NCBI GenBank assembly: GCA_963840035.1
Contig: CAWIXE010000002.1
Coordinates: 1,152,001 to 1,216,000, forward strand
Source: a candidate division FCPU426 bacterium
GTDB taxonomy: Bacteria > Oederibacteriota > PGYV01 > Palsa-1178
Direction: 5' to 3'
Length of the DNA stretch: 64,000 nucleotides
The notes beneath the pieces are model-generated. The model was not told the DNA's origin and ran no database searches. It worked only from the letters and a program-made list of their open reading frames with translations. This document shows, piece after piece, positions 14,579 through 64,000 of this stretch. Made by a program: the position numbers and the translations under genes. The first letter of the stretch is position 1. Every line of letters starts with the position of its first letter.

Positions 14579-15574
14579 TTAGTACTTTATGGGCTTTAAA
14601 ACATAAAGCCTGTCAGACGTGATGTAAATCATGTTGCTGTTCCCGCCTGAGATGCAGTTCGGATACCTGATCAGGCAGCTTTTTGCCTCATCCGAATCCC
14701 AGCTTGAGACGAACTTGCCTTTGGGGCTGAATACAAGGATCTGATGCGATTCAAACCAGTTGAAATACACGTACCCGTCCGGCATGACCGTAAAATTCTC
14801 CAGCTGTGTAAACCTCTTGATTTTTGTTATCTTCCACGCTGTTTTTAATTTCCCGGTTTTATCAAAAACCTGCATGCGGGCGCCTGACGGTTCAAGCAGG
14901 TCCATTACATATATATCGCCGCTGTTGGACAGGTGTATCTTGCCCATGTTTGAAAATTTGCCCTTATCCGTGCCCCTGCCGCCAAACTCCAAGAGCCTTG
15001 TGGTAAAATCCTTTGGCATTTTAACCACTTTACCGGCCTCATGATCGGCAATATAAAAATTATCCTCGCTGTCAATTTCAAACCATGTCGCGTTGCTGAA
15101 GCCCGATAAAACTGTCCTTTTCATCTCCTTGAAGTTGGGGTCGTACTGGATGATAAGGTTCTTGCCCGAAAGCACGTATATGTTCCCTGCCGAATCGGCG
15201 ACAGTTACAGCGGCGCCTTCTTTTACGGTGTATATTTTTTCAATTTTGCCGTTTGTCTTGTCAACCTTCCTGACTTCCCCTCTTTCCCCGTCAGTTATAT
15301 AGATATACTGCCCGTATTCCGCCATAGTGGTTATGCCGTTGTAAGGCTTGTCAAACGACGTCACAAATGTGGGTTTTTTCGACTGTACTATGGACGCCTG
15401 GCTCACGAAATAAATCTCAACTGCCGCAAAAATCGCAAACGCGATAAGGACCATCACAAGCATCTTGCCGTTCTTCGAAGGCGCCGCCTTTTCAGCGACC
15501 GTGTTTTTCGCCGCTTCGGCAACAGGCGCTTTTGCCTTCTTGTTTTTTACCGCTGCATTTTTCTTTTTAGCCAT
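14579..15574 (-). CDS. Membrane-anchored NHL-repeat/beta-propeller protein
   Basis: Basic N-terminus plus one TM helix; repeated DSAGNIYV / DSEDNFYIAD / FGGRGTDKGKF / SGDIYVMD / PDGYVY blades. Confidence 0.8.
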   Translation of the reverse strand: MAKKKNAAVKNKKAKAPVAEAAKNTVAEKAAPSKNGKMLVMVLIAFAIFAAVEIYFVSQASIVQSKKPTFVTSFDKPYNGITTMAEYGQYIYITDGERGEVRKVDKTNGKIEKIYTVKEGAAVTVADSAGNIYVLSGKNLIIQYDPNFKEMKRTVLSGFSNATWFEIDSEDNFYIADHEAGKVVKMPKDFTTRLLEFGGRGTDKGKFSNMGKIHLSNSGDIYVMDLLEPSGARMQVFDKTGKLKTAWKITKIKRFTQLENFTVMPDGYVYFNWFESHQILVFSPKGKFVSSWDSDEAKSCLIRYPNCISGGNSNMIYITSDRLYVLKPIKY

Positions 15575-15604
15575 TTCTTCCTCCTTGAGATATTTTACTG
15601 ACTT

Positions 15605-17134
15605 TTATTCCGCGGATACGACATAATCCGGTTCGAACAAATTAACAGGGACGGGCGCATACGTATTGGACCCCGGTTTCATCCACTTGACGTTAAAGCC
15701 GTTAGCGCCGGCGTATATTTCAATCTGATGACGTCCCTTGCTCAAGCTGAAACTCTGTACTTTTGTCATGGCCTGTTTTGTCCTGAAATATTTTTCGGCG
15801 TTCTCGTTGGATTCATTCGAGCTTAACTGCTCGGTATAGTACTTTTTGTCGATAATGAGCCTGGCGTAGATATTGCTCGCGGGTATTATGGAATAATTCC
15901 CGCTCTCGGGTATATTGATATAGCCTTTCAATACCTGGCAGTCAGCGCCCTGGAAGCTTCCCACGTCTATTTCCATGTTATTCACCTCAAAGGCAATAGG
16001 CCCCTGATCCCACATTTTTCCGGTGTAGTAATACGAATGAAGCCCGTAATTTTTCCAGTTATAAAGGTATTTCCCGTCCAGTTTTACCTGCTCAGACCCC
16101 TGGATGACGTTGCCTTCCATTTTTTTGGATTCCATTACGAGCTCAAGCCTGTCGTTTAATCCTGAACGGCGGGCGTCTATCTTTATATTATGAAAACCTT
16201 CGGCAAGCTTCAGCCCGTCCTGCGCGGCGGCGTTCCTGCCGTCGACAATCACTGTTACGGCGGATCCCGCCTTGTTATATATCCTGTACCTGCCATAATA
16301 CGGCACAAGCAGCGAGCCGCTCCATGACGCATTATACGGGACCTTACCGTCGTCAGCGGGCCTGTATACGGGAATGTCGTTTTTAACTTCGCCCCCGCCG
16401 AATGAGTACTTGCCGTTGAGCCCGCGTATTTTCTTAATGAATTCATTTTTCAGAATGACGGACTTTACAAACACGCCGAAACCCTCGCCCGATTTTACAT
16501 TTTTATTGAAATGCGAGTGTTCTATGACCTCAATGGGCGTATCCGGAAAGAATGTGGACACAACCGAGTTCATGTTTTGCCAGGTGTCATAGTGGAAAAA
16601 TATTGCAAAATCGCCGTCCTCGACATATCTCATCCACATTAACAGAGTGGTGAGCCTGTTTCCCGAGTTGGCCTCGCGGTCCCTGTACATCTTAAATGGC
16701 GGATGGCCCGGATAATAAGTGCCCGTATACAATACGACGCGGGTCTTTTCCCCGAGTTCTTTAGCGTACATGCCTGACGCGGTCGACAGCTCGTCCATGC
16801 CGCCTATCCAGCGCTGAAAATACTGATAATAATTGTCCTTCGCGATCGGTATGAGCGGAAGGATTATGATCAGAGGCAGGAAAACAACTTCAAACCTTTT
16901 CCCCAGCGCCCTTCTTAACGCCAGCCATATCCTATCAAAAGCCAGCGCGACAAAATACATGACAGGTATCATGGTCCCGAGCGCGCGCATGGCTGACGGG
17001 GCTTCTATGGAGAATATGGACCCGGCCGCCTGGGAAAAGAAGATCATGACCATGATAAAAAAGACATAATACTTGCTGAAATAAACAGCGTATAAAAAAC
17101 CTATGCCGTAAAAGACGGAGGTCCAGAAATCCAC
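15605..17134 (-). CDS. C-terminal segment of the frameshifted GT-C/PA14 protein
   Basis: Last TM helices, then PA14-like motifs (WSGSLLVPYYGRYRI, L.EGFHNIKI, GLHSYYY, KGYINIPESGNYSI, LSKGRHQIEI). Confidence 0.6.
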   Translation of the reverse strand: MDFWTSVFYGIGFLYAVYFSKYYVFFIMVMIFFSQAAGSIFSIEAPSAMRALGTMIPVMYFVALAFDRIWLALRRALGKRFEVVFLPLIIILPLIPIAKDNYYQYFQRWIGGMDELSTASGMYAKELGEKTRVVLYTGTYYPGHPPFKMYRDREANSGNRLTTLLMWMRYVEDGDFAIFFHYDTWQNMNSVVSTFFPDTPIEVIEHSHFNKNVKSGEGFGVFVKSVILKNEFIKKIRGLNGKYSFGGGEVKNDIPVYRPADDGKVPYNASWSGSLLVPYYGRYRIYNKAGSAVTVIVDGRNAAAQDGLKLAEGFHNIKIDARRSGLNDRLELVMESKKMEGNVIQGSEQVKLDGKYLYNWKNYGLHSYYYTGKMWDQGPIAFEVNNMEIDVGSFQGADCQVLKGYINIPESGNYSIIPASNIYARLIIDKKYYTEQLSSNESNENAEKYFRTKQAMTKVQSFSLSKGRHQIEIYAGANGFNVKWMKPGSNTYAPVPVNLFEPDYVVSAE

Positions 17135-18825
17135 GGTGGGTTCATACGGCTGCCCCCGGAATTTCGCTGCCTTGAATCCCCCTGATGGTTGAACATCTTT
17201 AAGACAAGCACAGTATTGTCCATGATCCCCTTTCCGACATTCTTGTTCGGGGCGTTTGGGTCTTTTGAAAAAACCGACACTTCGCTTATCCTGGAAAAGT
17301 ACATGCTTTTTGAAATAAAATAATTATGCACGATCATCGACGAGAATATCCAGAACCCGAGCATGAACGCGATAATGGATATCATATGGGCCTTGAAAAA
17401 GCCTTTGTTTGAGACTGATTTAAGGAACAGGTACAGGAAGCACGGGATTATGATAAGCCAGCTGGTCATGATGCCGTGCCATGTAAAGCCCACCGCAAGC
17501 CCGGCTAAGAACCATATTGATTTTTTCCGCTGCTTGAAAGCAAGCAAAATAAAATATATCGCCAGGATTTCCGCCAGCACGGTGAATTCGCCGTACTGGC
17601 CGTACCTGCTGTAATATACGTTCCATCTGAGTATCGCGAAGATCGCCGTCGTAAATATGGCCACCCGCGGGTTGAAAGCGAGCCTTATCATGAAATAAAG
17701 CGCGGGTATGGCCAGTATTCCGACGCTTACGCCCATGAATTTAAGGGCTATCCTCTGGTCGCTGAATATCTGCAGGCCCAGCTGCGCCAGGTGGTTAAAG
17801 ATCCCGAGATTTCCCACCGTCCTGTGTTCGTCCCCGACTACCAGGTTAAGAAATCCGCCCGCTTCGTCGTTTTCCATGCCGAAAGGCCTGGCGCCAAGGT
17901 CCCACACCCTGAGATAGATTGCCGCAACAAATATAAGGCCAAAACATACAAATTCAAGCCAGGCCGGAAATTTATCGTTTTCTTCCGGTTCCTTTTCCTG
18001 GTACACGGGCATAGCCATGATGAATATGACGGCGGCGGCAATAAAGTATCTGACTGCGGCGCCAAGGCTGCCTTTTACAAACTGTACCTGCCCGAGATAC
18101 GCGATAAAAAACGCGGCAAGGATGGCCACGAGCTTTATTATGTCCATCACCCTGTTTTCCGCGGGCTTTACGCTGAACTTCATCAGCGGGAACGCGAAGA
18201 ATACCAGCGCCCCCGCGCATCCGTATAAGCCGACTGCCGTCATTGACATGGCCGGATTATAGAGGAGCTTATTTGCAAAATATAGCACGATCAAAGCCGC
18301 CGCCATAAGGGCGCCTTTAACGGCATAATTGTTTAAAAAATCAAAATTTTTGAAAAGAATGTCCGTTTCGTTTACCTTCAGCGATGTCGCGAGGATTTCC
18401 GCTTCTTCCGCGGTCATGGAGCCCTGTTTGCCCGCTTTCTTATCGTCCATTATTTCCACATTTGGAAGGCCAAAATACGCAAGCACGCAGCCGATCGTTG
18501 TTAAGACCACGCCCACATACTGGGGTTCGCGGGTGGGTTTTAAAAGCCAGAACCATCCGGCCAGGACGCATGCAAGCCCTATTAAAATGAAAAGTAATTT
18601 GATGCCTTTTTCAAGCCTTAATTCAAACTTAAAGGAATTGTCTTTTTTCGTAAAATACACTATGGTCGTGAGTATGACAAGTACAAGGCATTCTATCGCC
18701 GTAACAAGCTCCTGCCTGATGAACTGTATCTGGGCGATGATTGCGAAGAGTATCACTATGACTAAAAGCGCGGCTTTGGGTATGTTTACATTGATGGAAA
18801 ATTCGGGGGATATTGTTTCAGCCAC
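17101..18825 (-). CDS. Central segment of the frameshifted GT-C/PA14 protein (PMT_2/GT39 core)
   Basis: Many TM helices; LRVWDLGARPFGMENDEA loop with the GT-C acidic DE motif; W.VYYSR. Confidence 0.6.
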   Translation of the reverse strand: MAETISPEFSINVNIPKAALLVIVILFAIIAQIQFIRQELVTAIECLVLVILTTIVYFTKKDNSFKFELRLEKGIKLLFILIGLACVLAGWFWLLKPTREPQYVGVVLTTIGCVLAYFGLPNVEIMDDKKAGKQGSMTAEEAEILATSLKVNETDILFKNFDFLNNYAVKGALMAAALIVLYFANKLLYNPAMSMTAVGLYGCAGALVFFAFPLMKFSVKPAENRVMDIIKLVAILAAFFIAYLGQVQFVKGSLGAAVRYFIAAAVIFIMAMPVYQEKEPEENDKFPAWLEFVCFGLIFVAAIYLRVWDLGARPFGMENDEAGGFLNLVVGDEHRTVGNLGIFNHLAQLGLQIFSDQRIALKFMGVSVGILAIPALYFMIRLAFNPRVAIFTTAIFAILRWNVYYSRYGQYGEFTVLAEILAIYFILLAFKQRKKSIWFLAGLAVGFTWHGIMTSWLIIIPCFLYLFLKSVSNKGFFKAHMISIIAFMLGFWIFSSMIVHNYFISKSMYFSRISEVSVFSKDPNAPNKNVGKGIMDNTVLVLKMFNHQGDSRQRNSGGSRMNPPWISGPPSFTA

Positions 18826-19157
18826 GGCGCCCGGCTGCCGCGCGCGGAAGCCTTAACGTCCCCGGTTATTGCCGCGCGTCCGCCGGTCTTTATCGCGTCC
18901 GCCGCTTTTTTACCTGATTCCGATAACTGAGTGTTGACTTTTGACGTAACCTCAAGTATTTTTTTTATAACATCAACGCACTTTTTATAGATGTCTGCTG
19001 ATTTGCCGCTGATGCCGAGGATTAGCAATACAAATGATATGGCCGTGAGGGTCATCCCTATCACAGCCTCACCGTTCAAAAGCAACTCGACCTGGCCGGC
19101 GGCAAGAAACAAAACAGCCACACCGATTAAAATATAATTAAACAATTTTTGATTCAT
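18786..19157 (-). CDS. N-terminal segment of the frameshifted GT-C/PA14 protein
   Basis: Two TM helices (..AAGQVELL..) resembling the N-terminus of 24631-27426 (..IAGQLFIL..); GAGAGG RBS and an upstream promoter. Confidence 0.55.
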   Translation of the reverse strand: MNQKLFNYILIGVAVLFLAAGQVELLLNGEAVIGMTLTAISFVLLILGISGKSADIYKKCVDVIKKILEVTSKVNTQLSESGKKAADAIKTGGRAAITGDVKASARGSRAPWLKQYPPNFPSM

Positions 19158-19385: not shown

Positions 19386-22300
19386 TTAAAATCCCGGGCT
19401 TAACATATCGTATGTGACCGGCCCGAACATTGTTTTTCCCTCAGGCCTGTACATAAAGCGCATAACAGCCGTATCGTTCCAATATTTATCCGTATAATGA
19501 TAATACGCGTTTATTATAAGGCGCTTTTTTCCTTTTGTCAGCGACACGGTTGTTATTGTTTCTTTTTTTCCGTCGGTAACATAAACAACCCTTCCCTCCA
19601 GCGTTACTTTGCCGTCATATCCCGTATCAAATTTGAAATCATATTTTCCATCCCGCGGAATGTCTATATAGCCGGTCCACTGTATCATGTCGCCTGATTC
19701 GTAGTCCGTGCCGAGCCTTGGATATGCCGCCCTTGGCGCGGGCCAGTACATGCGCTGTTGTATGTCCGGTTCAAGGCTTTTATACAGCACTTTTTTATAA
19801 TCCGTCGTCCTGTATTCGGCATTAAGTCCGTATATCTTGTCCGAGTTAAGCAGAAAACCGCGCGGGATGTCAATAAAGCCCTGGAGCCCGTCATATTTCC
19901 ATTTTAACGCCGCCCTTACTTCCGCTGTTTTTTTCATGACAACCTTTATCCTGTGCAGGCCCACGTAAAGCATCTGGGGTCCTCTGGCAATGGCGCCGTT
20001 TAAATATACTTCACCCGCCCCGTTTTCAACTTTGAATTCATAATTTTTATACTCCGGTATGTCGATAAGCCCGCTGAATACCGCCCTGTCAAACGTGCCG
20101 TCAAAAACGACCTCCGGCGATACAGAACGCACCGCGCCGGACGGCGCGCCGTTTTTTGACTTTACAATATCCAGCGTCGTCAGCGCGTCTATGTCCTTAT
20201 ACGGTATATTGGCAAAAGCCATGGCCACAAACGGGACCTTGGGGTCAAAGACATAAAACCACGAATACAGCATATTAAGGTCTATGACCGCGTCGGGATA
20301 TTTCCACTCATAGCAATACTTAAGCTTTGACGTTTTGTCAAACTGCCAGAAATTATGGTCCCATATGTATTTCATTTCCATGTCCGGGAAATATTCCTTA
20401 AACCGCGGCAGTGACTTGTAATAAATACCCTCGCCCACCACGCTTACATTTTTATTGTCGTTGTTGAACAACTGGTAAAGCTGCAGGCGTGATACATCCT
20501 CGGTTTTCCTGCATTTGTCAAGGTTCGCGCCTGAAATTTCCTTTACCGTCCCGCAATAGTAATTATCTATGAAGAATACAGACGGATGGAATATGGTGTC
20601 CTTATAATGCTTCATCATTTCTTTGCCCAGCATCAGGTCCGCCTGCCTGTAATATACCTGCGTATGCGGGTCATTCTTGTACATGACAAAGAAATTATTA
20701 AAATTATAAAATATGAAATGCGCCATGGCATAGGCGAAAACCAGCGGAGCTATCCATTTGAATATCCGCGGCCACAGCGAGTTAAGTTTTGCCATTACCC
20801 TTTCCATTCCAAGTGCTATGAACAGCATCAAAGGCGGTATGCCCATGACCATCCTGCTCGGGAACGGGTCTTCAGGCCCGAGCCTGGATAAGAAACCGCC
20901 CGCTAAACCGGCGCATAAGAACGCTATGGCAAAAAGGCTTGCCGGCTTCCTCCATGTGAAAGCCAGGAATCCCGCCCCGACAATGGCCCAGTATCCTGTC
21001 ATCATGTCAAAAAACGGCTTTTGCGGGAGATTATGGCAGTAACCGTTTGCCGAAAGGGTAAAAAACATCTGTATGTTCCTTATTATGTTCTCGGATAAAT
21101 TACGCATGTCCTCCATGCTGGGAGGCATGTGGTTAATGAGCGCCACCTTGCTGACCCTCTGGGCGTATGTGGCATAATGCTGGGCCGCGTAATCAAGCAT
21201 GGGCAGGTAAATGATAATGCCGGCAACGGCTAAAAGCACCAGCCCCCTCCAGCCGGACAACACCTTTTTCCTGTTTTCAGCGTCAAAGAGTACCAGCGCC
21301 GTGAACATCACAAAAAAGAACGGCAGCAGCCGGGCCGCGTTATAAAAGTAAAGGTTAAGCCCCACAAGCGCCCCGGAACCCACAAAGAACGCCATGTTGC
21401 CCTTTTTAAGCGCGTGATAAAAAAGATACAGGCTTGCAGCGGCAAGCAGAGGATTTGGCATCCACATAATGGCAATCCTGCTGTATAAAAGCGTCAAAAA
21501 GAAACATGCCGCAAGTATCGACGAAATGACGCCGACCGTCCTGTTAAACAGGTTCTTAAAAAGAAGGTAAGTGAATACAAGCATCAGCGCCGAGGACAGC
21601 ATGGAAAACAGCCTGGATGTAAAAAGATCGACTCCCCCTGTCATTTTTGCAAGGAGCGTTATAAGAAATACCTGCAGGGAAGGCGCGCTTAATTCTTCAT
21701 TTGGGAAGTACAGGCCGTATTTTGTCCCGGATGCCATGGCTTTGGCAAGATGGACGGTATTGCGCTCGTCGCCGTGAATGCCGGGCGGAATATCATAAAA
21801 CTGCCAGTTAAAAAGTATCATACCGGCTATAAAAATAAAAACCATGAACGCGGCGTCAAATAAATTAAGCCTGTCGCCCGCCCCGCCCTCCGGTTTAAAT
21901 CCTTTATCACCCGGCGCCGCGCCGAATAAAAACGCGGCTACGATGAAATATACAAAAGCCGAATGAAAATCATAATTCCTGAGGCTCATAAAAGCCATGT
22001 AAAAAAGCAACAGCGATGCTGCAATCATGGCAAGCGACATGTATTTTTGCGCGGAAGTAAGCACAAGCTCCGCGGGCTTTACGGCCGCATTCCCGTCCTT
22101 GAGAGTCTTATCCACAGGCCTGAATATCAGGACAAGCTGAATCAAGGATGCTATAAAGGCGATATCAGCGATGAGCCAGAGTCCGGCTTTTATGAGGTAA
22201 ACCCCTATGAACGCGAGCAAAAGCGCATTTGCGGACTTTAAAACCGCAAACAGCAATCCCCCCTGCAAAGGCTTATATGCGTTTTCACGAATCTCAAACT

Positions 22301-52086: not shown

Positions 52087-52088
52087 CT

Positions 52089-56269: not shown

Positions 56270-58621
56270 TTACGGTACCGCAGTCACCTTGCCGACCCAT
56301 GTGACGCTCTGGTTGCAAGTTCCTTTGGGGATATCCCCGAGGCTCCACGATACCGTACCTGTGCCGGGGCATCCCGTACAGCCGCCTGTGCAGCTTGTAC
56401 ACTGTACCCCTGCCGGAACAGGATCTGTTATCACATAATTATGAAGCACTCCTACGCTGTCGTTACAGTATGTTATGATCCATGTAATATTGTCGCCATT
56501 TAAAACAGGTGTTAAAGGTAACGCGGTTTTCGTTAAACCGGTTATTTCAGCGCAGATCGGGCTTGCGATTACCCTGTTCGACTTCTGCGCGATTATGCCC
56601 GTGCCGCCAATCCAGCTTTCATTGGTTATGGGGTTGCATGATTTGACCTTGCCCCACCAGGTAAGCGAACCGCCTTCATCCTGCAGATTGCCGAGGTTAA
56701 AAGTAACAACTCCGCCCGCGAACGACCCTGATTTCGGCGCGGCAGGCGTGTTCATTCCCGTATAAACGACTGATCCGTCGTTGTTATTAGGAAGCGTGTC
56801 CCATACAGTGGTTGTGGCCGCGGTAAAAGGGTTGTACACCACAAAATTATTATATGAATCCTTTGCATATTTCGTGGCATCGTCCCCGCCCTGCTCGGCT
56901 ATACCCGGCCTCCAGTTGGAGCCGTTATTGCAGTTAAGCGCTGTCCTTCTTGCCGCGTCCGTATCGTTCCATTCTATCTGGTATCCGCTCGGTTCCGGGT
57001 CGCCCTTTGGCCACGCCTTTGCCATGAAATGGTACTGGTTCGCCGGGTCAATCCAGATCTTCACGCGCCACCATTTGTTCGCGGTAATTGTCGGGTCCGG
57101 CTGGCCCGGTATGGCCACCGCTGGAGGCCAATAACATCCCGGCCCCGCGGTACAAGCCTGGAATTCTATATGGCCGGCGGTATACCCGCCGATGTTTTTA
57201 TCCACGGATATTGCCAGGCCGTACGCATTGCCGCTGGCAAGCCCGTCGTTCCTGATAAATATCATCGCGTCGGAACCTTCGTAACCGTTCGGGTCTATCA
57301 ACACATCCGTTTCTATGATGCCGCTGCACATTTTGGAAGTTGCTGGAAGGCCGTTAAACAATAACGCGGGATACTGTTTTGTGGCGCTTACCGAACCTGT
57401 TATGACCCTGTCCCCGGTGTTGCAGTTGTCCGCGACTTCCCACTGCCCTTCAGTCCCGTTTTGAGGAACAAAACTCCATCCGGGTACGGCGGGGCCACCT
57501 ATGCCGTATTTGCCGTATATGCCGTTTGGTATGTCGTCAAAAGGCTGGTATCCGACAAGCTCCATTCCGTTTACATTATATGTGAGTATGTAAGTGATGT
57601 TATCATCGTATGACGGGTTTGATTCGCTCTGGTCCTTTATAATGGATACAGCGGCCTGGCCGACCGTGTTTGTGGCATCAGCGGGCACGCTTCCAACCAA
57701 TGGCATGGTGCCTGTCGCGCTGTTTTTGTATTTTGTGTTGAATACCGGCGCTGTAGCCTGCCTGTATAGCATCCAGACAGTACCGCTGGCAGTACCCGCC
57801 ATACCTGTCCTGTCATACATGGTCCAGGAAAAATTCCCGGTGGACGCGCCGACGGCAGGCCCCGTAGCCGGCACGCCGGCTATGGATGTAGGGCCGAAAG
57901 AAACGAGCTGCAGCGCGCCGCCGTTAGGAGGCACAATATCGGTTATGGAAAACGGCCCGTTCCAGTATTCATAATCTATTGAAAATAAAACGAGGTCCCC
58001 GATTATCTGTACAGCGCCCACGGTCCTTTTGCTTATTGAAAAGCCCCTGGGTATTGTGCCTATGTTCCATGATAACGCCGGCGGGTCCAGTGCGCATACG
58101 GACGAACCGATCCATTCAGGGGCGTTAAGGTTTTGGTCTTTCATTCCGACATACAGGTAGAGTTTTGTGACGTTGCATCCTGGATAATAAGATGCCGGGG
58201 GGACATGCACGGTATATGTGACTGTGCGTATGGTGCTCTGGACATTATTATTGCAATCTGTGCAGTTGCCTGTGCCCGGCCCGTTCGGGTTCGCATTTGC
58301 AAGCCAACCTATCTCTCCGCCGGTCGTCGCCTGCGGCTGGGAAGTGGCCACATCTATCCCCGCCCTGCTCACCACAAAAACCTGGCCGTTTCCCGAGAGT
58401 TCAGCGCTGGTCTTAGTCGGCTGTGAACTGATGGCTATGTCTATCATGGCTGCGTTATAGTTTTGGGAGCAGTATCTTACGGTGATATCCACCGCATCCC
58501 CGAAAGTCGGGGTTGAGGGGTTCATGGTGACGCTTATGACCTTAGGACCTGCAGCAAGAAAAGCTGCAAACAGCATGAACGCCATCATAAAAACTGTATT
58601 TTTAAGGAAATTTCCGCTCAT
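56270..58621 (-). CDS. Secreted Cys-rich multidomain protein with DUF11-like Ig domains and a beta-sandwich/lectin-like core
   Basis: Signal peptide; ISKRT...GDLVLFSIDY, IIKDQS...DNITYILTY, LTKTA...GDNITWIITYCN..ITDPVPAGV...VSWSLGDIP; paralog of the N-terminal half of 58974-62864. Confidence 0.78.
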   Translation of the reverse strand: MSGNFLKNTVFMMAFMLFAAFLAAGPKVISVTMNPSTPTFGDAVDITVRYCSQNYNAAMIDIAISSQPTKTSAELSGNGQVFVVSRAGIDVATSQPQATTGGEIGWLANANPNGPGTGNCTDCNNNVQSTIRTVTYTVHVPPASYYPGCNVTKLYLYVGMKDQNLNAPEWIGSSVCALDPPALSWNIGTIPRGFSISKRTVGAVQIIGDLVLFSIDYEYWNGPFSITDIVPPNGGALQLVSFGPTSIAGVPATGPAVGASTGNFSWTMYDRTGMAGTASGTVWMLYRQATAPVFNTKYKNSATGTMPLVGSVPADATNTVGQAAVSIIKDQSESNPSYDDNITYILTYNVNGMELVGYQPFDDIPNGIYGKYGIGGPAVPGWSFVPQNGTEGQWEVADNCNTGDRVITGSVSATKQYPALLFNGLPATSKMCSGIIETDVLIDPNGYEGSDAMIFIRNDGLASGNAYGLAISVDKNIGGYTAGHIEFQACTAGPGCYWPPAVAIPGQPDPTITANKWWRVKIWIDPANQYHFMAKAWPKGDPEPSGYQIEWNDTDAARRTALNCNNGSNWRPGIAEQGGDDATKYAKDSYNNFVVYNPFTAATTTVWDTLPNNNDGSVVYTGMNTPAAPKSGSFAGGVVTFNLGNLQDEGGSLTWWGKVKSCNPITNESWIGGTGIIAQKSNRVIASPICAEITGLTKTALPLTPVLNGDNITWIITYCNDSVGVLHNYVITDPVPAGVQCTSCTGGCTGCPGTGTVSWSLGDIPKGTCNQSVTWVGKVTAVP

Positions 58622-58973: not shown

Positions 58974-61900
58974 CTAATACACATTCCCCAAATTCCCGTT
59001 TTGCATCATGACGGCTATCTTTGCCGTTTTCCTCTCGAGCAGACCCTCTGAATTCCTGGAATTAATTACAGCCACATAGTATCCAGCCGCTATTGGTTCT
59101 TCCCCGTTGCTTGCCATGAGATTCCATGCCACACCGCCGTCCTCAAGCCTGGCTTTAAATTTCTTTACCTGCTCGCCTTGCAGGTTATAAATATATACAG
59201 TAACCCATCCTGTCCCGGTAAATGACCAGCCTATGTCTATGTGGTCTACCTTTGAAACCACAGGGCCCCTGTAAGGGTTTGGCATTATTTTCACATCGCC
59301 AAGCGAAGAGTCTATTCTTTCATTTAATATATTCACTGTCCTTGAACCCTGTATCATCCTTCCCGAGTGGTTGGTAAGGACGAATTGTATCTCATAAACG
59401 CCGTTGCCCACCCTGACCCCGAGGTCATTTTTCCCGTCCCAGTCTATAAAACTTCCGGGCGCGTATTCAATTGATACCGGATTGTCATTTTTACCAAAAC
59501 TTATATCTTCCTCAATCTTTAGCGTAAGTTCATCAGCAGCCGGATTATTCACCCTGATAGTCCTGACCGCCTCGCCTGCCGTGTTAAACACCTTCATCTC
59601 GACATATCTGTCAAGATGCAGCACGGTTATGTCTTTTATAAGGACCGTCACATGGTCATAAGTGTCTTTTTGCGATATCTGTATGTAATATTTTCCCTGC
59701 GACACCGGCTGGTTTGCTGTATTATCCGCCGCCCAGGTGAAAACGGTAAAACCGTCCTGTATGGTATCAGGCGTGCAAAGCCCCGGGAAATTTATCGAGA
59801 GCACTCCGCCGGGCCCGATTATGCTGTCAGCGGCCCCGCCGGTTGACATCCAGACGTTCTTCATGGCCGCGGTGCATGGCTCTTCGGCTATGAATTTAAC
59901 CAATTCCCCCGCCTCGTTATAGACGCCGATCTTTATCATGTACGGAAATGGCGGCTCAGTCGGCGTGATAGTCGGCGTATTAGTCACTGTCCTTGTGGCA
60001 GTCAGCGTGGGCGTATGCGTCCTTGTATCTGTCGGCGTCGCTGTTTCAGTCACGGTCTGGGTCGATGTCTTTGACATAGTCTGCGTGAATGTGAAAGACT
60101 CGGTAGGCGACGCGGTAAGCGTCGGCGTGGCGGTAAAAGTCGGCGTCATGGTTTTTGTATTTGTATCAGTCGGGGTCGACGTGCGCGTAAACTCGGGCGT
60201 ATGGGTAAATGTCGGCGTGTGGGTGGACGTGGACGTATATGTCGGCGTATCCGTGTTTGTGGGCGTGGGTGTGGCTGTATCGGTATATGTGGAAGTGGCG
60301 GTCCTGGTAGGCGTGGCAGTGCTTGTCGGTGAATATGTAGGGGTCACTGTGGGCGTGAATTCCGGCGAATTAGTATACGTAGGCGTCACCGACGGTGTGG
60401 CTGTCCTCGTGGCTGTCGCGGTATATGTGTCCGTGGCAGTCGGCGTGGCCGTCCTTGTGGCCGTGTCGGTGCTTGTCGGCGTATGCGTAGACGTTGCCGT
60501 AAATGTGAATATCACCGACTGCGTAAATGTCGGGGTCGCTGTCATGGTCGCGGTCTTAGTCGGCGTCGATGTCTTCGTGTCCGTGGCTGTATAAGTGTCT
60601 GAAGGCGTGGAAGTCAGCGTGTATGTCGAAGTTGCCGTCCTGGACGGCGTAGCCGTAAGAGTGTTTGTGTACGTGGAAGAAGGCGTATATGTCGGCGTAT
60701 TTGTCCTCGTTGAAGTGTATGTGGACGTCGGCGTATTTGTCTTCGTTGCCGTGGATGTGGGGGTATTGGTAGGCGTGCTGCAGAGCACTTTGAGCGATAC
60801 GATGTTTGAGTACACAGGCTGGCCTGAAGCGCCGTCTATGTACGCGCTGTTGGTTATGGCGGCCGGGTCCTGTGTGCAATCCACCCTGCCCCACCATGTA
60901 AGCGAACCCGTCTGGTTTGTAAGCGAACCCATATCCCATTTCACAGTCTGATTAGGCGCCGTGCCTGCCACAGTTGCCGCGCCTCCGGGGCCCGTTCCTG
61001 AACCAAGATACGTGATTCCCAGCGGCACAGTGTCCAGTACCACGGTATTCTCGCTTGAAGACCTTTCCTTATATATAGTAAAGTTATCGTATGAGTCCTT
61101 TACATCCTTTGAATTTCCTGTCTGCTCATTTACTCCCGGACGCCAGTCTTTATATGTCCCTGTCCCGTCGCAAATCCACGCGGCGTCTGAATTTAACAGG
61201 GGGTCTGTATAATCTATGTCCCAATTTGTCGGCTCAGAATCGCCCCTGGGCCATATCCTCGCCCTTATCCTCTGCCCTCCGCCGGAATTAGTAACCCAAA
61301 TCCTTACCCTGTACCATTTATTTGCCGACGGGTAGCCAATTGACGGCGCCGGACCGCCCGGAGTCACGCCGATGTAGGTACACGTCGTCCCGGCGCACTT
61401 CTGATACATTAAAAAACCGGGGGTTGGGGCTTCATCAATGGATACCACAATGCCTATTCCCTGCGCTGCTCCGCCGCTTTGCCCGTTATTCCTGATGACG
61501 ATCTGCCCGTCAGCCCCCGGGAACGTGCCCGGGTCGATCTTTATGTCAGAAACTATGATGCCTGTGCAGAACTGGTCGCTGTCAGCCGGAAGGTGCGGGG
61601 CCGCGCTGCCGTCATTTAAAAGCATTCCAGGATACATATCCGAAGCTCCGGTAAATACCCTGTCGCCGGTGCTAAAACCCGTGCACGGGTCTCCGACAGT
61701 CCAGGTTGTCGCGGCAGTGCCGCCCACCGGCATCCATCCGGCCGGCGCCCCTGACGGGCCGATATAATTACCCGCGGCTATGTCGTCAAACCCGCTGAAA
61801 CTTTTTAATATGTAACCATTAATGTCGTATGAAAGCGTATAAGTTATGGTGTCGCCGCTGTTTAAAACCGGGGCGCTTTCTGATTTTGTCAGGCTGACAG

Positions 61901-62864
61901 CCGTGGCGCCCGTTGTGACCGTGGCCGGAGGCGTGTCATAATTTGGCTGGCCGTTCATGGAGCCGTGGGCTATATTTGAATATGAACCCGATGGAACTCC
62001 TGTAACCGCGCACAGCATCCACACCGTGCCTTTTACAGAGCCATTGATGCCTGTCCTGTCCGGGAAAGTCCACGTGATAGTCCCCGCTGAATTCACAGCG
62101 CTTCCCGCAGGCGGCCCGGGGATTGTCTGCGGCCCCCATGAAATAAGTGTGAAGCCTGCCGGTACCGAGTCAACTATCTTAAAATTGCTGCCGTTTGCAT
62201 ATTCGTAATCCACCGAAAAGAGCACTTTGTCCCCTGCTGCCTGAAGCACTCCCTCATACCTTTTTGCTATCTTAAAATATGTCGGGAAGGTCGGGACATC
62301 CCAGCTTATTGCTTTTGCCTGGCATGCCGCAAGCGGCTGCGAACCCACAGGATCCCAGCTCTGCGCGCCTGAGAGGTAAGAATTTTTGGCGGCTGCGTGG
62401 ACATACAGTTTTGTCAGGTTACAGTTTGGGAAATTATCGGCATTGGGTATTTTTATGGTGTAATGAAGCCTGACCGTCCTTGACGGGTCTCCCGCGTTGC
62501 AGCCATTCGTGCATGGGGTGGGAGTAAGCGCCGGCAGCGACGAGAGCTGTACGAGGTTAGGGTCCTTGTATCCTATCTCGTCCTCGGATGATAAAAATGT
62601 AATCTTTTCCTTATTTACCCCATACTTGGTCACCATGAAAACCTGCCCGCCGCTGCCCGGGGTTGTCCTTACAGGAGATTGGCTTATGGCAAGGGCTATC
62701 TGAGCCTCATTATAATTATTCGTGCACATGTCAACATAGACATCGACAATCTGTCCGAACACAGGCTGGGCCGGGACCATTGTAATCCCTATTATCTCAG
62801 GTTCGGCAAATACAAATGCCGCCATAAGAAGGGACATAATTAAAAGCACAAGTTTTCTCAGCAT
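58974..62864 (-). CDS. Large secreted protein: DUF11-like/lectin-like N-region, (Thr-X)n stalk, triple Ig/FlgD/CTD-like tail
   Basis: Signal peptide; LTKSESAPVLNSGDTITYTLSY; about 280-aa Thr-alternating stalk; PFPYMIKIGVYNEAGELVK, WDGKNDLG, MPNPY. Confidence 0.85.
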   Translation of the reverse strand: MLRKLVLLIMSLLMAAFVFAEPEIIGITMVPAQPVFGQIVDVYVDMCTNNYNEAQIALAISQSPVRTTPGSGGQVFMVTKYGVNKEKITFLSSEDEIGYKDPNLVQLSSLPALTPTPCTNGCNAGDPSRTVRLHYTIKIPNADNFPNCNLTKLYVHAAAKNSYLSGAQSWDPVGSQPLAACQAKAISWDVPTFPTYFKIAKRYEGVLQAAGDKVLFSVDYEYANGSNFKIVDSVPAGFTLISWGPQTIPGPPAGSAVNSAGTITWTFPDRTGINGSVKGTVWMLCAVTGVPSGSYSNIAHGSMNGQPNYDTPPATVTTGATAVSLTKSESAPVLNSGDTITYTLSYDINGYILKSFSGFDDIAAGNYIGPSGAPAGWMPVGGTAATTWTVGDPCTGFSTGDRVFTGASDMYPGMLLNDGSAAPHLPADSDQFCTGIIVSDIKIDPGTFPGADGQIVIRNNGQSGGAAQGIGIVVSIDEAPTPGFLMYQKCAGTTCTYIGVTPGGPAPSIGYPSANKWYRVRIWVTNSGGGQRIRARIWPRGDSEPTNWDIDYTDPLLNSDAAWICDGTGTYKDWRPGVNEQTGNSKDVKDSYDNFTIYKERSSSENTVVLDTVPLGITYLGSGTGPGGAATVAGTAPNQTVKWDMGSLTNQTGSLTWWGRVDCTQDPAAITNSAYIDGASGQPVYSNIVSLKVLCSTPTNTPTSTATKTNTPTSTYTSTRTNTPTYTPSSTYTNTLTATPSRTATSTYTLTSTPSDTYTATDTKTSTPTKTATMTATPTFTQSVIFTFTATSTHTPTSTDTATRTATPTATDTYTATATRTATPSVTPTYTNSPEFTPTVTPTYSPTSTATPTRTATSTYTDTATPTPTNTDTPTYTSTSTHTPTFTHTPEFTRTSTPTDTNTKTMTPTFTATPTLTASPTESFTFTQTMSKTSTQTVTETATPTDTRTHTPTLTATRTVTNTPTITPTEPPFPYMIKIGVYNEAGELVKFIAEEPCTAAMKNVWMSTGGAADSIIGPGGVLSINFPGLCTPDTIQDGFTVFTWAADNTANQPVSQGKYYIQISQKDTYDHVTVLIKDITVLHLDRYVEMKVFNTAGEAVRTIRVNNPAADELTLKIEEDISFGKNDNPVSIEYAPGSFIDWDGKNDLGVRVGNGVYEIQFVLTNHSGRMIQGSRTVNILNERIDSSLGDVKIMPNPYRGPVVSKVDHIDIGWSFTGTGWVTVYIYNLQGEQVKKFKARLEDGGVAWNLMASNGEEPIAAGYYVAVINSRNSEGLLERKTAKIAVMMQNGNLGNVY
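59950..60780 (-). repeat. Low-complexity (Thr-X)n coding repeat
   Basis: TPTxT/TATPT/TSTHT variants with 6-nt periodicity. Confidence 0.85.
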
Positions 62865-62963: not shown

Positions 62964-63026
62964 TTGGTATAAACCGAATGGTTTCTCAATGCGGAACAAA
63001 AAATTGAAAGGGTTCAATGAAGGCGA

Positions 63027-63150
63027 ATTTTCGATTTTCAATTTTAAATTTTCAATTAAAGTCAAAATGCCGTACTTATAAACCAAAAACGCCCGCATCC
63101 GGGCGTTTTTGGTTTATATAATTGAAAATCGAAAATTCAAAATTGGAAAT
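63027..63150. repeat. ATTTTNN heptamer inverted-array element, copy 5 (encloses a terminator)
   Basis: Arms at 63027-63060 and 63117-63150. The right arm abuts the TAA stop at 63150-63152. Confidence 0.85.
63077..63118 (-). terminator. Intrinsic terminator
   Basis: tataaaccaaaaacgcccg-catc-cgggcgtttttggtttata. Confidence 0.85.
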
Positions 63151-64000
63151 TATTTCTTACTCACTATCGCCATCTTCAGGGTCTTCATTTCTATGACGCC
63201 CTTTTCATTTTTGGATTCAAATAACACGACATATTTGCCGTCTGCCGCCTTTTCACCGCTTACGGTCTTTAAGTCCCAGCGGACAAATGTCTCTGAGAGC
63301 CTGCACTTGAACTCCTTGACTTTTTCGCCTGCCATGTTATATATCGCTATTTTTATTTCACCGGGGGATGCCGTTATCCAGCTGAAAGTTATCACCTTGT
63401 TAACGGATTTGCCCTTGAAATACGGGTTTGGCGATATCATGATGCTGTTGAGGAATTTGTCCTTTACATGCAGCACGGTAACGGCTTTTGACTCCACCTT
63501 AGTCCTGCCCTGGTTATTCACAAGGTTAACCTGTATCTCGTATACGCCGTTATCCACCGCGATCCCCTGCTCGTTATTCCCGTCCCACTTGACATAATCT
63601 GTGAGGTTGTTTCCATATGTAATGGTTACATCGGTGTACACCTTGTCAAAACCATAGTAAGTCGGAACTTTTAGCGAGATATTTGACGGCGAGAGCGTCT
63701 TATACTCTTTCATCAGCTTTACCAGTTCGCCCGCGCTGTTATAAATGTCTATCTCAACATATTCCCTGACGTCAATGGTGGTTATGGTCTTTATCAGCAC
63801 GTTAGTATGCGCATATTTGTCCACCTGCTCGAACTTGATGTAATACAGTCCGTTCCCCGTGGGCTGGTTGGCGTCGGTTATGGAATCCCATGTGAAAGTG
63901 GTGCCGCCGACGCCCTGTCCTATGTTCTCAGGCGTCAGTACGCCGGGCAGGTATATGCTCAGAGGATTATCGCTTGATATCATATTTACGTTATTTACGC
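63150..64000 (-). CDS. 3' end of another secreted protein with the triple Ig/FlgD/CTD-like tail (starts beyond the window)
   Basis: YYIKFEQVDKYAHTNVLIKTI, IYNSAGELVK, WDGNNEQG..V.NGVYE, ISPNPY...IYNMAGEKVK; homologous to the tails of 53855-56233 and 58974-62864. Confidence 0.85.
   Translation of the reverse strand, partial: VNNVNMISSDNPLSIYLPGVLTPENIGQGVGGTTFTWDSITDANQPTGNGLYYIKFEQVDKYAHTNVLIKTITTIDVREYVEIDIYNSAGELVKLMKEYKTLSPSNISLKVPTYYGFDKVYTDVTITYGNNLTDYVKWDGNNEQGIAVDNGVYEIQVNLVNNQGRTKVESKAVTVLHVKDKFLNSIMISPNPYFKGKSVNKVITFSWITASPGEIKIAIYNMAGEKVKEFKCRLSETFVRWDLKTVSGEKAADGKYVVLFESKNEKGVIEMKTLKMAIVSKK

What the first reader, a model, noticed from the sequence alone, without database searches (positions are those of the whole stretch)
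14579..64000. Candidate coupled system: lipid-linked rare-sugar glycosylation locus beside secreted mucin-like (Thr-X)n proteins
Seen in sequence: the locus has nucleotide-sugar synthesis genes, three GT2 polyprenol-P-sugar synthase-like genes, GtrA and an LPG-synthase-TM flippase, and five or six GT-C-type membrane transferases. It has no recognisable Wzx/Wzy/Wzz, Wzm/Wzt or WaaL in the window. Directly adjacent are genes for proteins with 200-280-aa alternating-Thr stalks. Established: GT2 + GtrA + GT-C triads move single sugars across the membrane, and GT39/PMT enzymes O-glycosylate Ser/Thr-rich proteins. Inference: this is an extracytoplasmic, monosaccharide-by-monosaccharide glycosylation system acting on the Thr stalks or on an envelope polymer.
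Basis: partly seen in the sequence, partly recalled or inferred. Interest (0 to 1): 0.7.

Follow-up and report, generated by a model that had tools for sequence, protein, structure and literature searches.

The report
Goldbacteria periplasmic sugar-coating gene cluster
This uncultured Goldbacteria-type bacterium carries a conserved set of membrane sugar-transferring enzymes beside swappable rare-sugar genes, which likely add sugars one at a time outside the cytoplasm, most likely onto the long threonine-rich stalks found in about 120 of its proteins, although the neighbouring stalk genes are themselves weak evidence for that target.

Summary
The window has CDP-3,6-dideoxy/branched-sugar genes, three GT2s, GtrA, an LPG-TM protein, six GT-C-type genes (one frameshifted into three ORFs), no Wzx/Wzy/WaaL, and two (Thr-X)n stalk genes.

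The adjacency is weak evidence. 120 of 2953 ORFs have stalks, PMT_2 genes lie no closer to them than other genes do, and this junction was seen only in the genome's own family.

Conserved across the order (Goldbacteria) is a different core: GT-C enzymes with tandem PA14 domains, an NHL propeller, a CTD-tailed protein and a PorV barrel. The sugar cassettes vary. The enzymes have the GT-C fold and the catalytic DE; the fold cannot separate PMT, ArnT and STT3.

Close relatives occur in Chloroflexota, which lack LPS, often with TIGR03662/TIGR03663 and often fused to NHL. In the phylum the family occurs in 81 of 81 stalk-bearing genomes and 0 of 18 stalk-free ones; TIGR03662 in 80 and 0; a control GT-C does not track. 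This is only 1-2 evolutionary events.

Best reading: stepwise, lipid-donor periplasmic glycosylation, probably of the stalks (0.45); a glycolipid or LPS acceptor remains open. The scan noted this system before on other DNA.

The parts
8572..9924 (-).
   Evidence: NF033709 112 bits, cut-off 90. Orthologue in 20 of 24 genomes of the order; within about 6.5 kb of a GT-C/PA14 gene in 12 of those 20.
9973..11727 (-). CTD584: secreted protein, beta-sandwich + FnIII + Pro/Thr linker + T9SS type-A-like tail; conserved neighbour of the PorV
   Evidence: TIGR04183 29.3 bits, cut-off 23; 12-sequence alignment. Model pLDDT 63.6; a 94-column match to PorZ at rmsd 2.4, read as the tail.
11999..14457 (-). 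Two tandem radical SAM/SPASM proteins; variable members of the locus, role not determined
   Evidence: Pfam; homologues inside the locus in G003, G004, G007, G008
14579..15574 (-). Membrane-anchored NHL-type beta-propeller, likely partner of the GT-C/PA14 enzymes
   Evidence: SGL and ScyF_NHL weak hits; next to GT-C copies in relatives. PMT_2+PA14+NHL fused in 8 of 26 outside homologues.
15605..19157 (-). GTCa: one GT-C + PA14-like gene, 1130-1190 aa in most relatives; here in three ORFs (18786-19157, 17101-18825, 15605-17134) through two frameshifts
   Evidence: Found in 17 of 24 genomes of the order; tblastn pieces in different frames; N-D-E invariant in 13 of 13 orthologues; one break lies in a G run.
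19386..22670 (-). GTCb: intact 1094-aa GT-C glycosyltransferase with periplasmic alpha/beta domain and two PA14 domains
   Evidence: PMT_2 + PA14; D301 invariant in 27 rows; AF2 pLDDT 86.8; Z 22-23 to STT3/AglB/Pmt4, 21.8 to ArnT
22724..24576 (-). GT2a (predicted polyprenyl-P-sugar synthase, 2 C-terminal TM) and NAD epimerase/reductase of the dideoxy-sugar cassette
   Evidence: GT2a 64-74% identical in the rfbFGH loci of G002, G012, G013, G019
24631..27426 (-). GTCc: 931-aa GT-C paralogue; first catalytic acid not conserved (GE or variants in place of DE)
   Evidence: PMT_2; motif view of 8 orthologues; orthologues also in families f15 and f21
27536..35540 (-). Branched-sugar genes: AroB-like cyclase 27536-28606, SDR 28603-29268, aldolase 29290-30891, ThDP enzyme 33744-35540; the interleaved 895-aa polytopic orphan 30930-33617
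   Evidence: TIGR04425 411.8 bits, cut-off 400; same four enzymes at 56-70% identity in G002; logic of YerE/ErwE clusters (PMC9306805, part 1 of 3 read); orphan has an orthologue in G008
35570..37264 (-). GT87-like GT-C (a)
   Evidence: Paralogue of 47619-49277, E 2e-77; no Pfam hit at 1e-4
37466..47622 (-). Low-GC cassette: epimerase, LPG_synthase_TM, two methyltransferases, GT4, DUF362, PaaK-like ligase, AsnB amidotransferase, GT2b
   Evidence: GC 0.378 for 39499-47622 against 0.479 for 14579-37264
47619..49277 (-). GT87-like GT-C (b), travelling with the rfbFGH cassette
   Evidence: Atlas 0.97 to a GT87 cluster; 35% homologue in the same cassette of G002
49278..52856 (-). GtrA flippase, RfbH, RfbG, RfbF (CDP-4-keto-3,6-dideoxyglucose pathway)
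   Evidence: PF04138; NF011936, TIGR02622, TIGR02623 above cut-offs
53059..53757 (+). GT2c, soluble DPM-synthase-like GT2; at this locus only in family f1
   Evidence: orthologue in 20 of 24 genomes, away from the locus in G010, G012, G013, G018, G019
53855..56233 (-). Secreted 792-aa protein with a (Thr-X)n stalk (window 54806-55504) and T9SS-like tail
56270..58621 (-). Secreted 783-aa protein related to the N-terminal part of the 1296-aa protein; no stalk, no tail match
58974..62864 (-). Secreted 1296-aa protein with a (Thr-X)n stalk (window 59919-60815) and T9SS-like tail
63150..64000 (-). C-terminal FlgD/T9SS-tail part of a 909-aa stalk protein; its stalk lies just beyond the window

Best explanation
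The window is the variable-sugar locus of a widespread, uncharacterised periplasmic glycosylation system that likely builds or extends O-glycans on the (Thr-X)n stalks of this bacterium's secreted proteins.

Shown: (a) a conserved core of GT-C-fold enzymes with tandem PA14 domains, an anchored NHL propeller, a CTD-tailed protein and a PorV barrel; (b) exchangeable sugar cassettes, here CDP-4-keto-3,6-dideoxyglucose genes plus ThDP carboligase, aldolase, reductase and AroB-like cyclase; (c) 120 stalk proteins in the genome, 69 with a T9SS-like tail.

From established family knowledge: GT2 enzymes load single nucleotide sugars onto undecaprenyl phosphate, GtrA-type proteins help flip them, and GT-C enzymes transfer them on the periplasmic face using the DE acid.

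Inferred: the slowly evolving GTCa (with NHL, and the TIGR03662/TIGR03663 proteins encoded elsewhere in this genome) handles the invariant inner steps. The fast-evolving GTCb-type and GT87-like paralogues add the variable branched or dideoxy sugars, with the PA14 domains holding the growing glycan. The acceptors would be Thr-X stalks met in the periplasm before export through the SprA/PorV route. The system would serve all stalk proteins, not only the neighbouring genes.
For: GT-C fold, Z 20-23 to STT3, AglB, Pmt4, Pmt1-2 and ArnT; the lowest rmsd among the top rows is to Pmt4 (3.6 A over 370 residues). DE/NDE conserved; the acid is essential in M. tuberculosis PMT (PMC12331936, passages).

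Core kept through rearrangements in 12 genomes of 6 families while sugar genes change.

Not tied to LPS: the 3 of 20 looked-up outside clusters with a taxon name below domain level are all Chloroflexota, and GTCa nests with them (54-row clade, support 97).

Same system: TIGR03662 or TIGR03663 homologues lie in 19 of 41 large metagenome loci of the family, in one locus with GTCa in G028 and G053, and above cut-off elsewhere in this genome. Haloarcula Agl23 is linked to Dol-P-hexose donors for N- and O-glycans (PMC11182771, passages).

Co-occurrence in 99 phylum genomes: stalk pattern 81; family profile in the same 81 and 0 of 18 others; curated TIGR03662 in 80 of 81 and 0 of 18. Stalk-free genomes keep LpxC (4 of 5), PorV (5 of 5) and other PMT_2 (5 of 5). 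The control TMEM260-like family does not track (18 of 18 stalk-free; absent from 12 stalk-bearing).
Against: No direct evidence that the stalks are glycosylated.

The co-occurrence needs only 2 changes on an RpoC tree (bootstrap range 1-3), so any clade-specific gene could show it, and the A2 profile was built from in-clade proteins.

In 42 outside genomes the match is poor: 3 have strong family hits, 2 of them with no stalk pattern, and G127 has 37 pattern matches but only a 2e-9 hit. Of 41 large metagenome loci, 7 have a Thr-rich ORF and only 3 a long T-X run.

PMT_2 genes are no closer to stalk genes than background. 0 of 27 members match PF02366 PMT or PMT_4TMC, and the fold ties with ArnT (Z 21.8).

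Branched dideoxy sugars are known from LPS and lipooligosaccharides (PMC9306805, PMC4403928). The genome makes lipid A and has 9 TMEM260-like and 12 Wzy_C matches that could serve proteins instead. GTCa is frameshifted in this assembly, and GTCc lacks the first acid.
Confidence: 0.45

Rival explanations
1. Same lipid-donor, sugar-by-sugar mechanism, but the product is a lipid-anchored envelope glycan: a glycolipid, or decoration of LPS core or O-chain, as with GtrABC seroconversion or mycobacterial lipooligosaccharides. The stalks are unrelated neighbours.
For: GT2 + GtrA + GT87-like genes travel with the rfbFGH cassette. The locus varies like a serotype locus. YerE/ErwE-type branched sugars end up in LPS (PMC9306805, part 1). 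DPM-like GT2s are proposed to feed extracellular transferases in M. kansasii LOS (PMC4403928, passages). LpxC, Wzx and WaaL-like genes are in the genome. GT-C enzymes with carbohydrate-binding domains that build lipid-linked glycans (AftD, Emb) appear in the fold list.
Against: LPS cannot be the shared acceptor of a family that is well represented in Chloroflexota. LpxC-positive, stalk-free relatives lack the family and TIGR03662. A non-LPS glycolipid is not excluded by these points.
Confidence: 0.3
2. The locus makes a surface anchor glycan for T9SS-like cargo, analogous to A-LPS, and the conserved CTD584/PorV pair binds or delivers it as PorZ/PorQ do in Porphyromonas.
For: A PorV orthologue stays near the GT-C genes in 12 of 20 genomes, with CTD584 beside it in all but G011, including rearranged orders. 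95 tail-bearing proteins and a SprA-like gene (188.2 bits, cut-off 200) are present. PorZ role from the abstract of PMC8545088 (search listing).
Against: No Peptidase_C25/PorU match in G000, G003 or G012. CTD584 resembles PorZ over only 94 columns and otherwise matches FnIII folds. There are 39 PorV-family matches per genome, so proximity is easy. The family also exists in Chloroflexota, which lack an LPS outer membrane.
Confidence: 0.1
3. The stalks are glycosylated, but by other enzymes: the TMEM260-like/DUF2723 GT-Cs or Wzy_C-type O-oligosaccharyltransferases encoded elsewhere. This locus plays no part.
For: 9 TMEM260-like genes in G000; human TMEM260 is a protein O-mannosyltransferase (PMC10214176, passages). 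In G010 three genes of this type alternate with stalk genes next to the locus. 7 of 9 lie within 10 kb of a stalk gene versus 44% background (small numbers).
Against: The TMEM260-like family is in 18 of 18 stalk-free genomes and was not found in 12 stalk-bearing ones. Only 1 of 9 lies within 2 kb of a stalk gene.
Confidence: 0.1
4. The GT-C proteins are ArnT-like lipid A modifiers that add amino or deoxy sugars to lipid A phosphates.
For: Fold Z 21.8 to ArnT, tied with the best. JGI names many relatives '4-amino-4-deoxy-L-arabinose transferase-like'. GT2b's best NCBIfam hit is ArnC.
Against: 0 of 27 members hit an ArnT model at E 0.01. The ArnC hit is 205.5 bits against a cut-off of 529, and no Arn model passes in the window. 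Tandem PA14 domains, NHL fusions and Chloroflexota homologues do not fit a lipid A acceptor.
Confidence: 0.05

Closest known systems
TIGR03662 (Chlor_Arch_YYY) / TIGR03663 (Agl23) gene set; Haloarcula hispanica Agl22/Agl23
   Same: Polyprenol-P-monosaccharide donors used outside the cytoplasm. The window's GT-C family sits in one locus with these genes in G028, G053 and 19 of 41 metagenome loci; both genes pass their cut-offs elsewhere in this genome.
   Different: The window's own GT-Cs are not TIGR03663 members (weak hits in 7 of 27). They carry tandem PA14 domains and variable rare-sugar cassettes, in a diderm with T9SS-like cargo. The bacterial product is unknown.
Protein O-mannosyltransferases (GT39: M. 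tuberculosis Rv1002c, yeast Pmt1/2/4)
   Same: GT-C fold (Pmt4 Z 22.3, rmsd 3.6 over 370), DE motif in the first external loop, and abundant Thr/Pro-rich potential acceptors.
   Different: No PF02366 or PMT_4TMC match in 27 members. A periplasmic alpha/beta domain plus two PA14 domains replace the MIR/EL4 architecture. Several paralogues; donors are probably not only mannose.
ArnT (GT83) lipid A aminoarabinose transferase
   Same: GT-C fold with a C-terminal periplasmic domain (Z 21.8, rmsd 6.7 over 449); PMT_2 clan; predicted Und-P-sugar donor.
   Different: No ArnT model hit, no Arn pathway gene above cut-off in the window, PA14/NHL modules, and members in Chloroflexota.
GtrABC three-component glycosylation (recalled) and mycobacterial lipooligosaccharide loci (M. 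kansasii MKAN27435, M. marinum LosA/WcaA)
   Same: DPM-like GT2 + GtrA + GT-C; G1P-cytidylyltransferase pathway; no Wzx/Wzy in the locus.
   Different: Six GT-Cs in three unrelated groups, lectin-like domains, and a conserved link to a PorV barrel and a CTD protein.
Acyl-branched sugar clusters (YerE/YerF yersiniose; ErwE/F/I erwiniose; caryophyllose)
   Same: CDP-4-keto-3,6-dideoxyglucose genes + ThDP enzyme + aldolase + reductase (PMC9306805).
   Different: An extra AroB-like cyclase (TIGR04425) suggests a cyclised branch (inference). The sugar would be routed through a GT2/GtrA lipid carrier.
Bacteroidota type IX secretion attachment complex (PorV, PorQ/PorZ, PorU, A-LPS)
   Same: Type-A-like tails on 95 proteins, 39 PorV-family matches, a SprA-like gene.
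   Different: No PorU match in this genome; SprA just under cut-off; CTD584 is not a PorZ by fold beyond a 94-column match.

Membership tests
GT-C superfamily | Polytopic GT-C fold | tested here: met
   AF2 model of 19386-22670, pLDDT 86.8; Z 19-23 to STT3, AglB, PglB, Pmt, ArnT, ALG9/12, DPY19
GT-C superfamily | Catalytic acid (DE) in the first external loop | tested here: met
   GTCb D301 invariant in 27 rows; GTCa N-D-E in 13 of 13; GTCc lacks the Asp in most of 8 orthologues
PMT / GT39 protein O-mannosyltransferase | PF02366 PMT and PMT_4TMC domains | tested here: not met
   0 of 27 members at E 0.01; 8 of 26 outside homologues do match PF02366 weakly
PMT / GT39 protein O-mannosyltransferase | Closest structural neighbour is a PMT | tested here: inconclusive
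   Pmt4 Z 22.3, rmsd 3.6/370; STT3 23.3, 7.5/430; ArnT 21.8, 6.7/449; ranks within about 1 Z
PMT / GT39 protein O-mannosyltransferase | Transfers sugar from polyprenol-P to Ser/Thr of proteins | not testable with these tools
   Needs an assay or glycoproteomics
ArnT / GT83 | Match to ArnT family models | tested here: not met
   0 of 27 members hit an ArnT model in Pfam or NCBIfam at E 0.01; that such models are in both libraries is recalled
ArnT / GT83 | Arn donor pathway (ArnA/B/C) encoded alongside | tested here: not met
   ArnC model 205.5 vs 529 bits, ArnB 125.3 vs 631, ArnA 49.1 vs 777
GT87 (DUF2029) | PF09594 match for 35570-37264 and 47619-49277 | tested here: inconclusive
   No Pfam hit at 1e-4; Atlas 0.97 to a GT87 cluster, 23 of 30 hits with that family (run for 47619-49277 only)
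Three-component (GtrABC-type) glycosylation | GT2 synthase + GtrA flippase + GT-C in one locus | tested here: met
   rfbFGH-gtrA-TPP with GT2a followed by a GT-C also in G002 and G012
Wzx/Wzy or ABC-type O-antigen locus | Wzx, Wzy, Wzz or Wzm/Wzt, WaaL in the locus | tested here: not met
   None among 44 window ORFs; Wzx and Wzy_C matches lie elsewhere
CDP-3,6-dideoxyhexose / acyl-branched sugar pathway | RfbF, RfbG, RfbH plus ThDP enzyme, aldolase, reductase | tested here: met
   RfbF/G/H above cut-offs; TPP, HMGL-like and SDR families present
CDP-3,6-dideoxyhexose / acyl-branched sugar pathway | Identity of the sugar made | not testable with these tools
   Needs enzymology or glycan analysis
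TIGR03662/TIGR03663 (YYY/Agl23) system | Both models above cut-off in the genome and linked to the GT-C/PA14 family | tested here: met
   G000 C2:1431932-1436335, 274.4 and 508.6 bits; same locus as GTCa in G028 and G053; unlinked in this genome
Type IX secretion system | Type A tail on cargo and PorV-family barrels | tested here: met
   TIGR04183 above cut-off for 9973-11727 and 63150-63983; 39 PorV matches
Type IX secretion system | SprA translocon | tested here: inconclusive
   2165-aa gene, 188.2 bits against cut-off 200
Type IX secretion system | PorU sortase (Peptidase_C25) | tested here: not met
   No match in G000, 98% complete
Type IX secretion system | PorK/L/M/N motor | not tested
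   Not searched here; an earlier scan note reports none (e1-7660645)

The most novel reading that the evidence does not exclude
A Gram-negative bacterium runs a eukaryote-style, stepwise mucin-type O-glycosylation pathway. PA14-bearing GT-C enzymes of a family shared with Chloroflexota build glycans sugar by sugar on thousands of alternating threonines in about 120 T9SS-like cargo proteins and lipoproteins. Swappable cassettes cap them with branched or cyclised dideoxy sugars, so the cell's serotype is a glycoprotein brush rather than an O-antigen, handed to a dedicated PorV/CTD pair for export.
Probability: 0.3. Interest if true: 0.8.

Novelty: new variant of a known kind. Interest (0 to 1): 0.5.

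Why it matters
The family is very large (5,265 clusters at E 1e-30) and is routinely labelled 'GT39' or 'ArnT-like', yet nine literature searches found no paper on its function, on Goldbacteria stalks, or on T9SS-like export in this lineage. Subscription papers are not covered by those searches.

This locus supplies a concrete, testable set: named donor pathways, transferases with lectin-like domains, and an abundant candidate acceptor that appears and disappears with the system inside one phylum. If the acceptor is the stalk, it would be a stepwise protein O-glycosylation system in a diderm and would suggest a function for TIGR03662/TIGR03663 across Chloroflexota and archaea. If it is a glycolipid, the locus is still a Wzx/Wzy-independent serotype locus with a probably new branched sugar.

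Tried and rejected
Rejected as evidence:
- Adjacency to the stalk genes.
- General PMT_2 expansion as a marker of stalks: stalk-free G026 has 47 matches.
- TMEM260-like enzymes as the tracking family.

No result:
- Complex prediction of GTCa (G002 orthologue, residues 372-1015) with the NHL propeller gave no answer, score 0.00; not counted either way.
- No sequencing run was listed, so the frameshifts could not be checked against reads. Indirect check: 1 of 42 conserved G000 loci tested is split (GTCa itself), and a pyrB-like gene is also split, which points to assembly indels without proving them.
- No Rfam match in the window.
- The search for related loci with GTCb alone found nothing.
- The AroB-like protein had no plasmid match at 1e-40.
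- Pattern search on 27 metagenome contigs was not possible because the records are not held, so stalk content of Chloroflexota genomes was not tested.

Weak or partial:
- The CTD584 model is low confidence (pLDDT 63.6) and its N-terminal domain has no clear match; Atlas leads were 0.86-0.91.
- The first GT-C tree (172 rows) timed out. It was rebuilt by FastTree on 99 rows, keeping only a fixed list of 26 outside proteins, and has no characterised PMT or ArnT sequence in it.
- In the RpoC tree the G129 outgroup row is unreliable (branch length 10, probably a wrong ORF), G062 gave no match, and 27 of 99 phylum genomes were used.
- The A2 phylum search scored at most 8 candidates per genome, so copy numbers could not be correlated with stalk counts.
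- No supplementary files were read; CAZy tables in PMC7031533 or PMC9765126 might mention these enzymes.

Full report
WHAT IS THERE. The window is G000:C2:1152001-1216000 of a 3.46-Mb, three-contig genome, 98% complete. A 65%-identical orthologue of the window's PorV gene (L049) lies in a record titled Candidatus Goldbacteria bacterium, and an earlier scan note gives the same lineage. The order holds 24 genomes in 10 families and the phylum sample 99.

RfbF, RfbG, RfbH and the AroB-like TIGR04425 pass their NCBIfam cut-offs. A ThDP enzyme, aldolase, SDR, two epimerases, three GT2s, GtrA and LPG_synthase_TM are present. No Wzx, Wzy, Wzz, Wzm/Wzt or WaaL family appears among 44 ORFs. Part of the locus (39499-47622) is a low-GC cassette, 0.378 against 0.479, with a soluble GT4, an amidotransferase and methyltransferases, so some steps are probably cytoplasmic.

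There are six GT-C-type genes. GTCb (19386-22670) and GTCc (24631-27426) are intact. GTCa is one gene of about 1130-1190 aa in relatives (17 of 24 genomes) but is split here into three ORFs by two frameshifts. One break is in a G run; 1 of 42 conserved loci tested was split, and a pyrB-like gene is split too. An assembly error is likely but unverified, since no run was listed. Two GT87-like paralogues and an 895-aa orphan complete the set.

THE STALKS. Two genes carry strictly alternating stalks of 233 and 299 aa (T-T 0, T-x-T 93 and 112) followed by a T9SS-like tail. They are ordinary for this genome. 120 of 2953 ORFs have such a stretch, covering 10.7% of bases; 95 proteins end in the tail, 69 of them with stalks. 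Across all stalks, T-T occurs 288 times and T-x-T 11,540 times.

IS THE ADJACENCY MEANINGFUL? Mostly not. A locus has a 5.5% chance of a stalk gene within 200 bp of either end and 45% within 5 kb. The three PMT_2 genes are 26-35 kb from the nearest stalk gene. Genome-wide, 4 of 24 PMT_2 genes lie within 2 kb of one, against 13.9% of all genes.

The junction stalk trio / GT2c / locus is kept in G002, G003 and G005, all family f1. In G010, G012 and G018 the upstream flank is a different shared housekeeping block, and in G013 and G019 other genes again; GT2c lies elsewhere. Other Thr-rich genes do occur nearby: five between the locus and PorV in G010, one 5 kb upstream in G012, one upstream and others downstream in G018, and one 7 kb from two paralogues on another G013 contig. 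None was seen in the G019 stretches. This is about what their abundance predicts.

WHAT IS CONSERVED. The stable core is at the other end: GTCa, GTCc, GTCb-type genes, the NHL propeller (14579-15574), CTD584 (9973-11727) and PorV (8572-9924). The PorV orthologue occurs in 20 of 24 genomes. In 12 of them, from 6 families, it lies within about 6.5 kb of a GT-C/PA14 gene, in several gene orders; in G010 it is 38 kb away, and 7 were not inspected. There are 39 PorV-family matches per genome, so orthology, not proximity alone, carries this point. The sugar genes between the core members differ from genome to genome, like serotype cassettes. G002 shares this genome's rfbFGH-gtrA-TPP-aldolase-SDR-AroB-GT87-GT2a set at 35-77% identity.

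WHAT KIND OF ENZYME. The GTCb model (27-row alignment, pLDDT 86.8, pTM 0.84) has a GT-C core, a periplasmic alpha/beta domain and two PA14 domains, whose best sequence match is the tandem PA14 of RsgI3. Z-scores tie: STT3 23.3 (rmsd 7.5, 430 aligned), AglB 22.9, Pmt4 22.3 (3.6, 370), ArnT 21.8 (6.7, 449). All 27 members match PMT_2 and 22 match PA14; none matches PMT, PMT_4TMC or an ArnT model, 7 weakly match TIGR03663 and 5 archaeal STT3. The catalytic acid is conserved in GTCa and GTCb but mostly missing in GTCc. So these are GT-C enzymes but members of neither PMT nor ArnT.

RELATIVES ELSEWHERE. The family has 5,265 clusters at E 1e-30. Of 20 outside clusters looked up, three have a taxon name below domain level, all Chloroflexota/Anaerolineae, as does P0005. 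Chloroflexota are described as lacking an LPS outer membrane (PMC10608941, passages). Eight of 26 scanned homologues fuse PMT_2, PA14 and NHL, which ties the window's separate propeller to the enzymes. In a FastTree of 99 cores, GTCa and its f15/f21 orthologues fall in one clade with the Chloroflexota proteins (support 97).

Of 41 metagenome loci of 12 kb or more, 19 hold two or more such GT-Cs and 19 hold a TIGR03662- or TIGR03663-like gene, but only 7 hold a Thr-rich ORF. In G028 and G053, GTCa shares a locus with TIGR03662, TIGR03663 and NHL genes. In this genome that cassette lies about 220 kb beyond the window, both models above cut-off. Haloarcula Agl23 (TIGR03663) is described as a flippase for Dol-P-hexoses used for extracellular N- and O-glycans (PMC11182771, passages).

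CO-OCCURRENCE. A DNA pattern for alternating Thr codons matches 81 of 99 phylum genomes and none in five families (18 genomes); the reversed-pattern controls are far lower. The family profile at 1e-25 matches the same 81 and none of the 18. The curated TIGR03662 model, free of that profile's circularity, matches 80 of the 81 (the miss is 63% complete) and 0 of 18; among the 14 controls it rings in Haloferax and Methanosarcina. Stalk-free genomes keep LpxC (4 of 5), PorV (5 of 5) and 4-47 other PMT_2 matches. The TMEM260-like family does not track: 18 of 18 stalk-free genomes have it and 12 stalk-bearing ones lack it.

Against this: an RpoC tree of 27 phylum genomes needs only 2 changes for the trait (bootstrap 1-3). 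In 42 outside genomes the three strong family hits fall in one genome with 11 pattern matches and two with none, while a genome with 37 matches has only a weak hit.

MECHANISM. Shown: anatomy, fold, motif, conserved core, variable cassettes and co-occurrence. From known families: GT2 loading of polyprenol phosphate, flipping, and periplasmic transfer by GT-C (GtrABC recalled; the same model is proposed for M. kansasii LOS in PMC4403928, passages). The CDP-dideoxy genes with ThDP enzyme, aldolase and reductase fit a long-branched sugar (PMC9306805, part 1 of 3 read), and the AroB-like enzyme may cyclise it (inference). I put this lipid-donor, stepwise mechanism at about 0.85.

The acceptor is inferred. 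A target shared with LPS-free lineages and tracking the stalks points to Thr-linked glycans (0.45 overall). A glycolipid or LPS decoration (0.3), an A-LPS-like anchor (0.1; no PorU match), other enzymes serving the stalks (0.1) and ArnT-like lipid A modification (0.05) remain.

NOVELTY. The chemistry is of a known kind; the family and its product are uncharacterised. Term searches in the Goldbacteria paper PMC7031533 found no threonine, linker or T9SS in its main text. A T9SS glycosylation review (PMC11611037, passages) covers Bacteroidota only. PMC12331936 and PMC10214176 were read as passages; PMC8545088 was seen only as a search listing. Nine searches found no paper on this family. Earlier unchecked scan notes describe the same system in other genomes; they are leads, not support. 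Verdict: new variant of a known kind, interest 0.5.

Noticed in passing
G000:C2:371719-381356 (L218): A WaaL/O-ligase-like gene (418 aa) and a heptosyltransferase-like GT9 lie just upstream of the SprA-like gene. A Wzy_C match precedes SprA by a few kb in all 5 genomes searched, a possible link between a ligase and the export pore.
   Followed up: partly
G010:C9:72740-102431 (L096, L097): Three TMEM260/DUF2723-like GT-C genes alternate with five Thr-rich genes between the glycosylation locus and CTD584/PorV.
   Followed up: partly
G000:C2:1429868-1436335 (L217): TIGR03662 + TIGR03663 + two NHL propellers + a Wzx-like flippase + GT2s: the second half of the system, unlinked from the window here but linked to GTCa in G028 and G053.
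   Followed up: yes
G000:C3:141433-145914: A 1493-aa, about 24-TM protein matching both PMT_2 and TIGR03662; proteins of this size recur across the stalk-bearing genomes.
   Followed up: no
window 27536-28606: The AroB-like sugar-phosphate cyclase inside a branched-sugar cassette suggests a carbocyclic or cyclised branch; no paper linking the two was found.
   Followed up: partly
window 30930-33617: 895-aa, about 12-TM orphan with no Pfam or NCBIfam match; its C-terminal region looks LamG-like by eye (recalled pattern). An orthologue lies in the G008 locus.
   Followed up: partly
window 11999-14457: Tandem radical SAM/SPASM paralogues inside the glycan locus, with homologues in G003, G004, G007 and G008; possibly sugar-modifying.
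   Followed up: no
G000:C3:409750-426015: A 5421-aa protein with a continuous Thr-rich stretch of about 4,480 aa.
   Followed up: no
G000:C2:517383-518337: A pyrB-like gene split in two frames, suggesting residual indel errors in this assembly.
   Followed up: partly
G029:C89 and G027:C1:1112191-1147254: Tandem arrays of five and of seven GT-C paralogues of this family in other families of the phylum.
   Followed up: no
G127 and G106 (genomes of L079 and L058): These outside genomes carry (Thr-Gly)n repeats in place of mixed Thr-X stalks; G106 also has a strong family hit.
   Followed up: no
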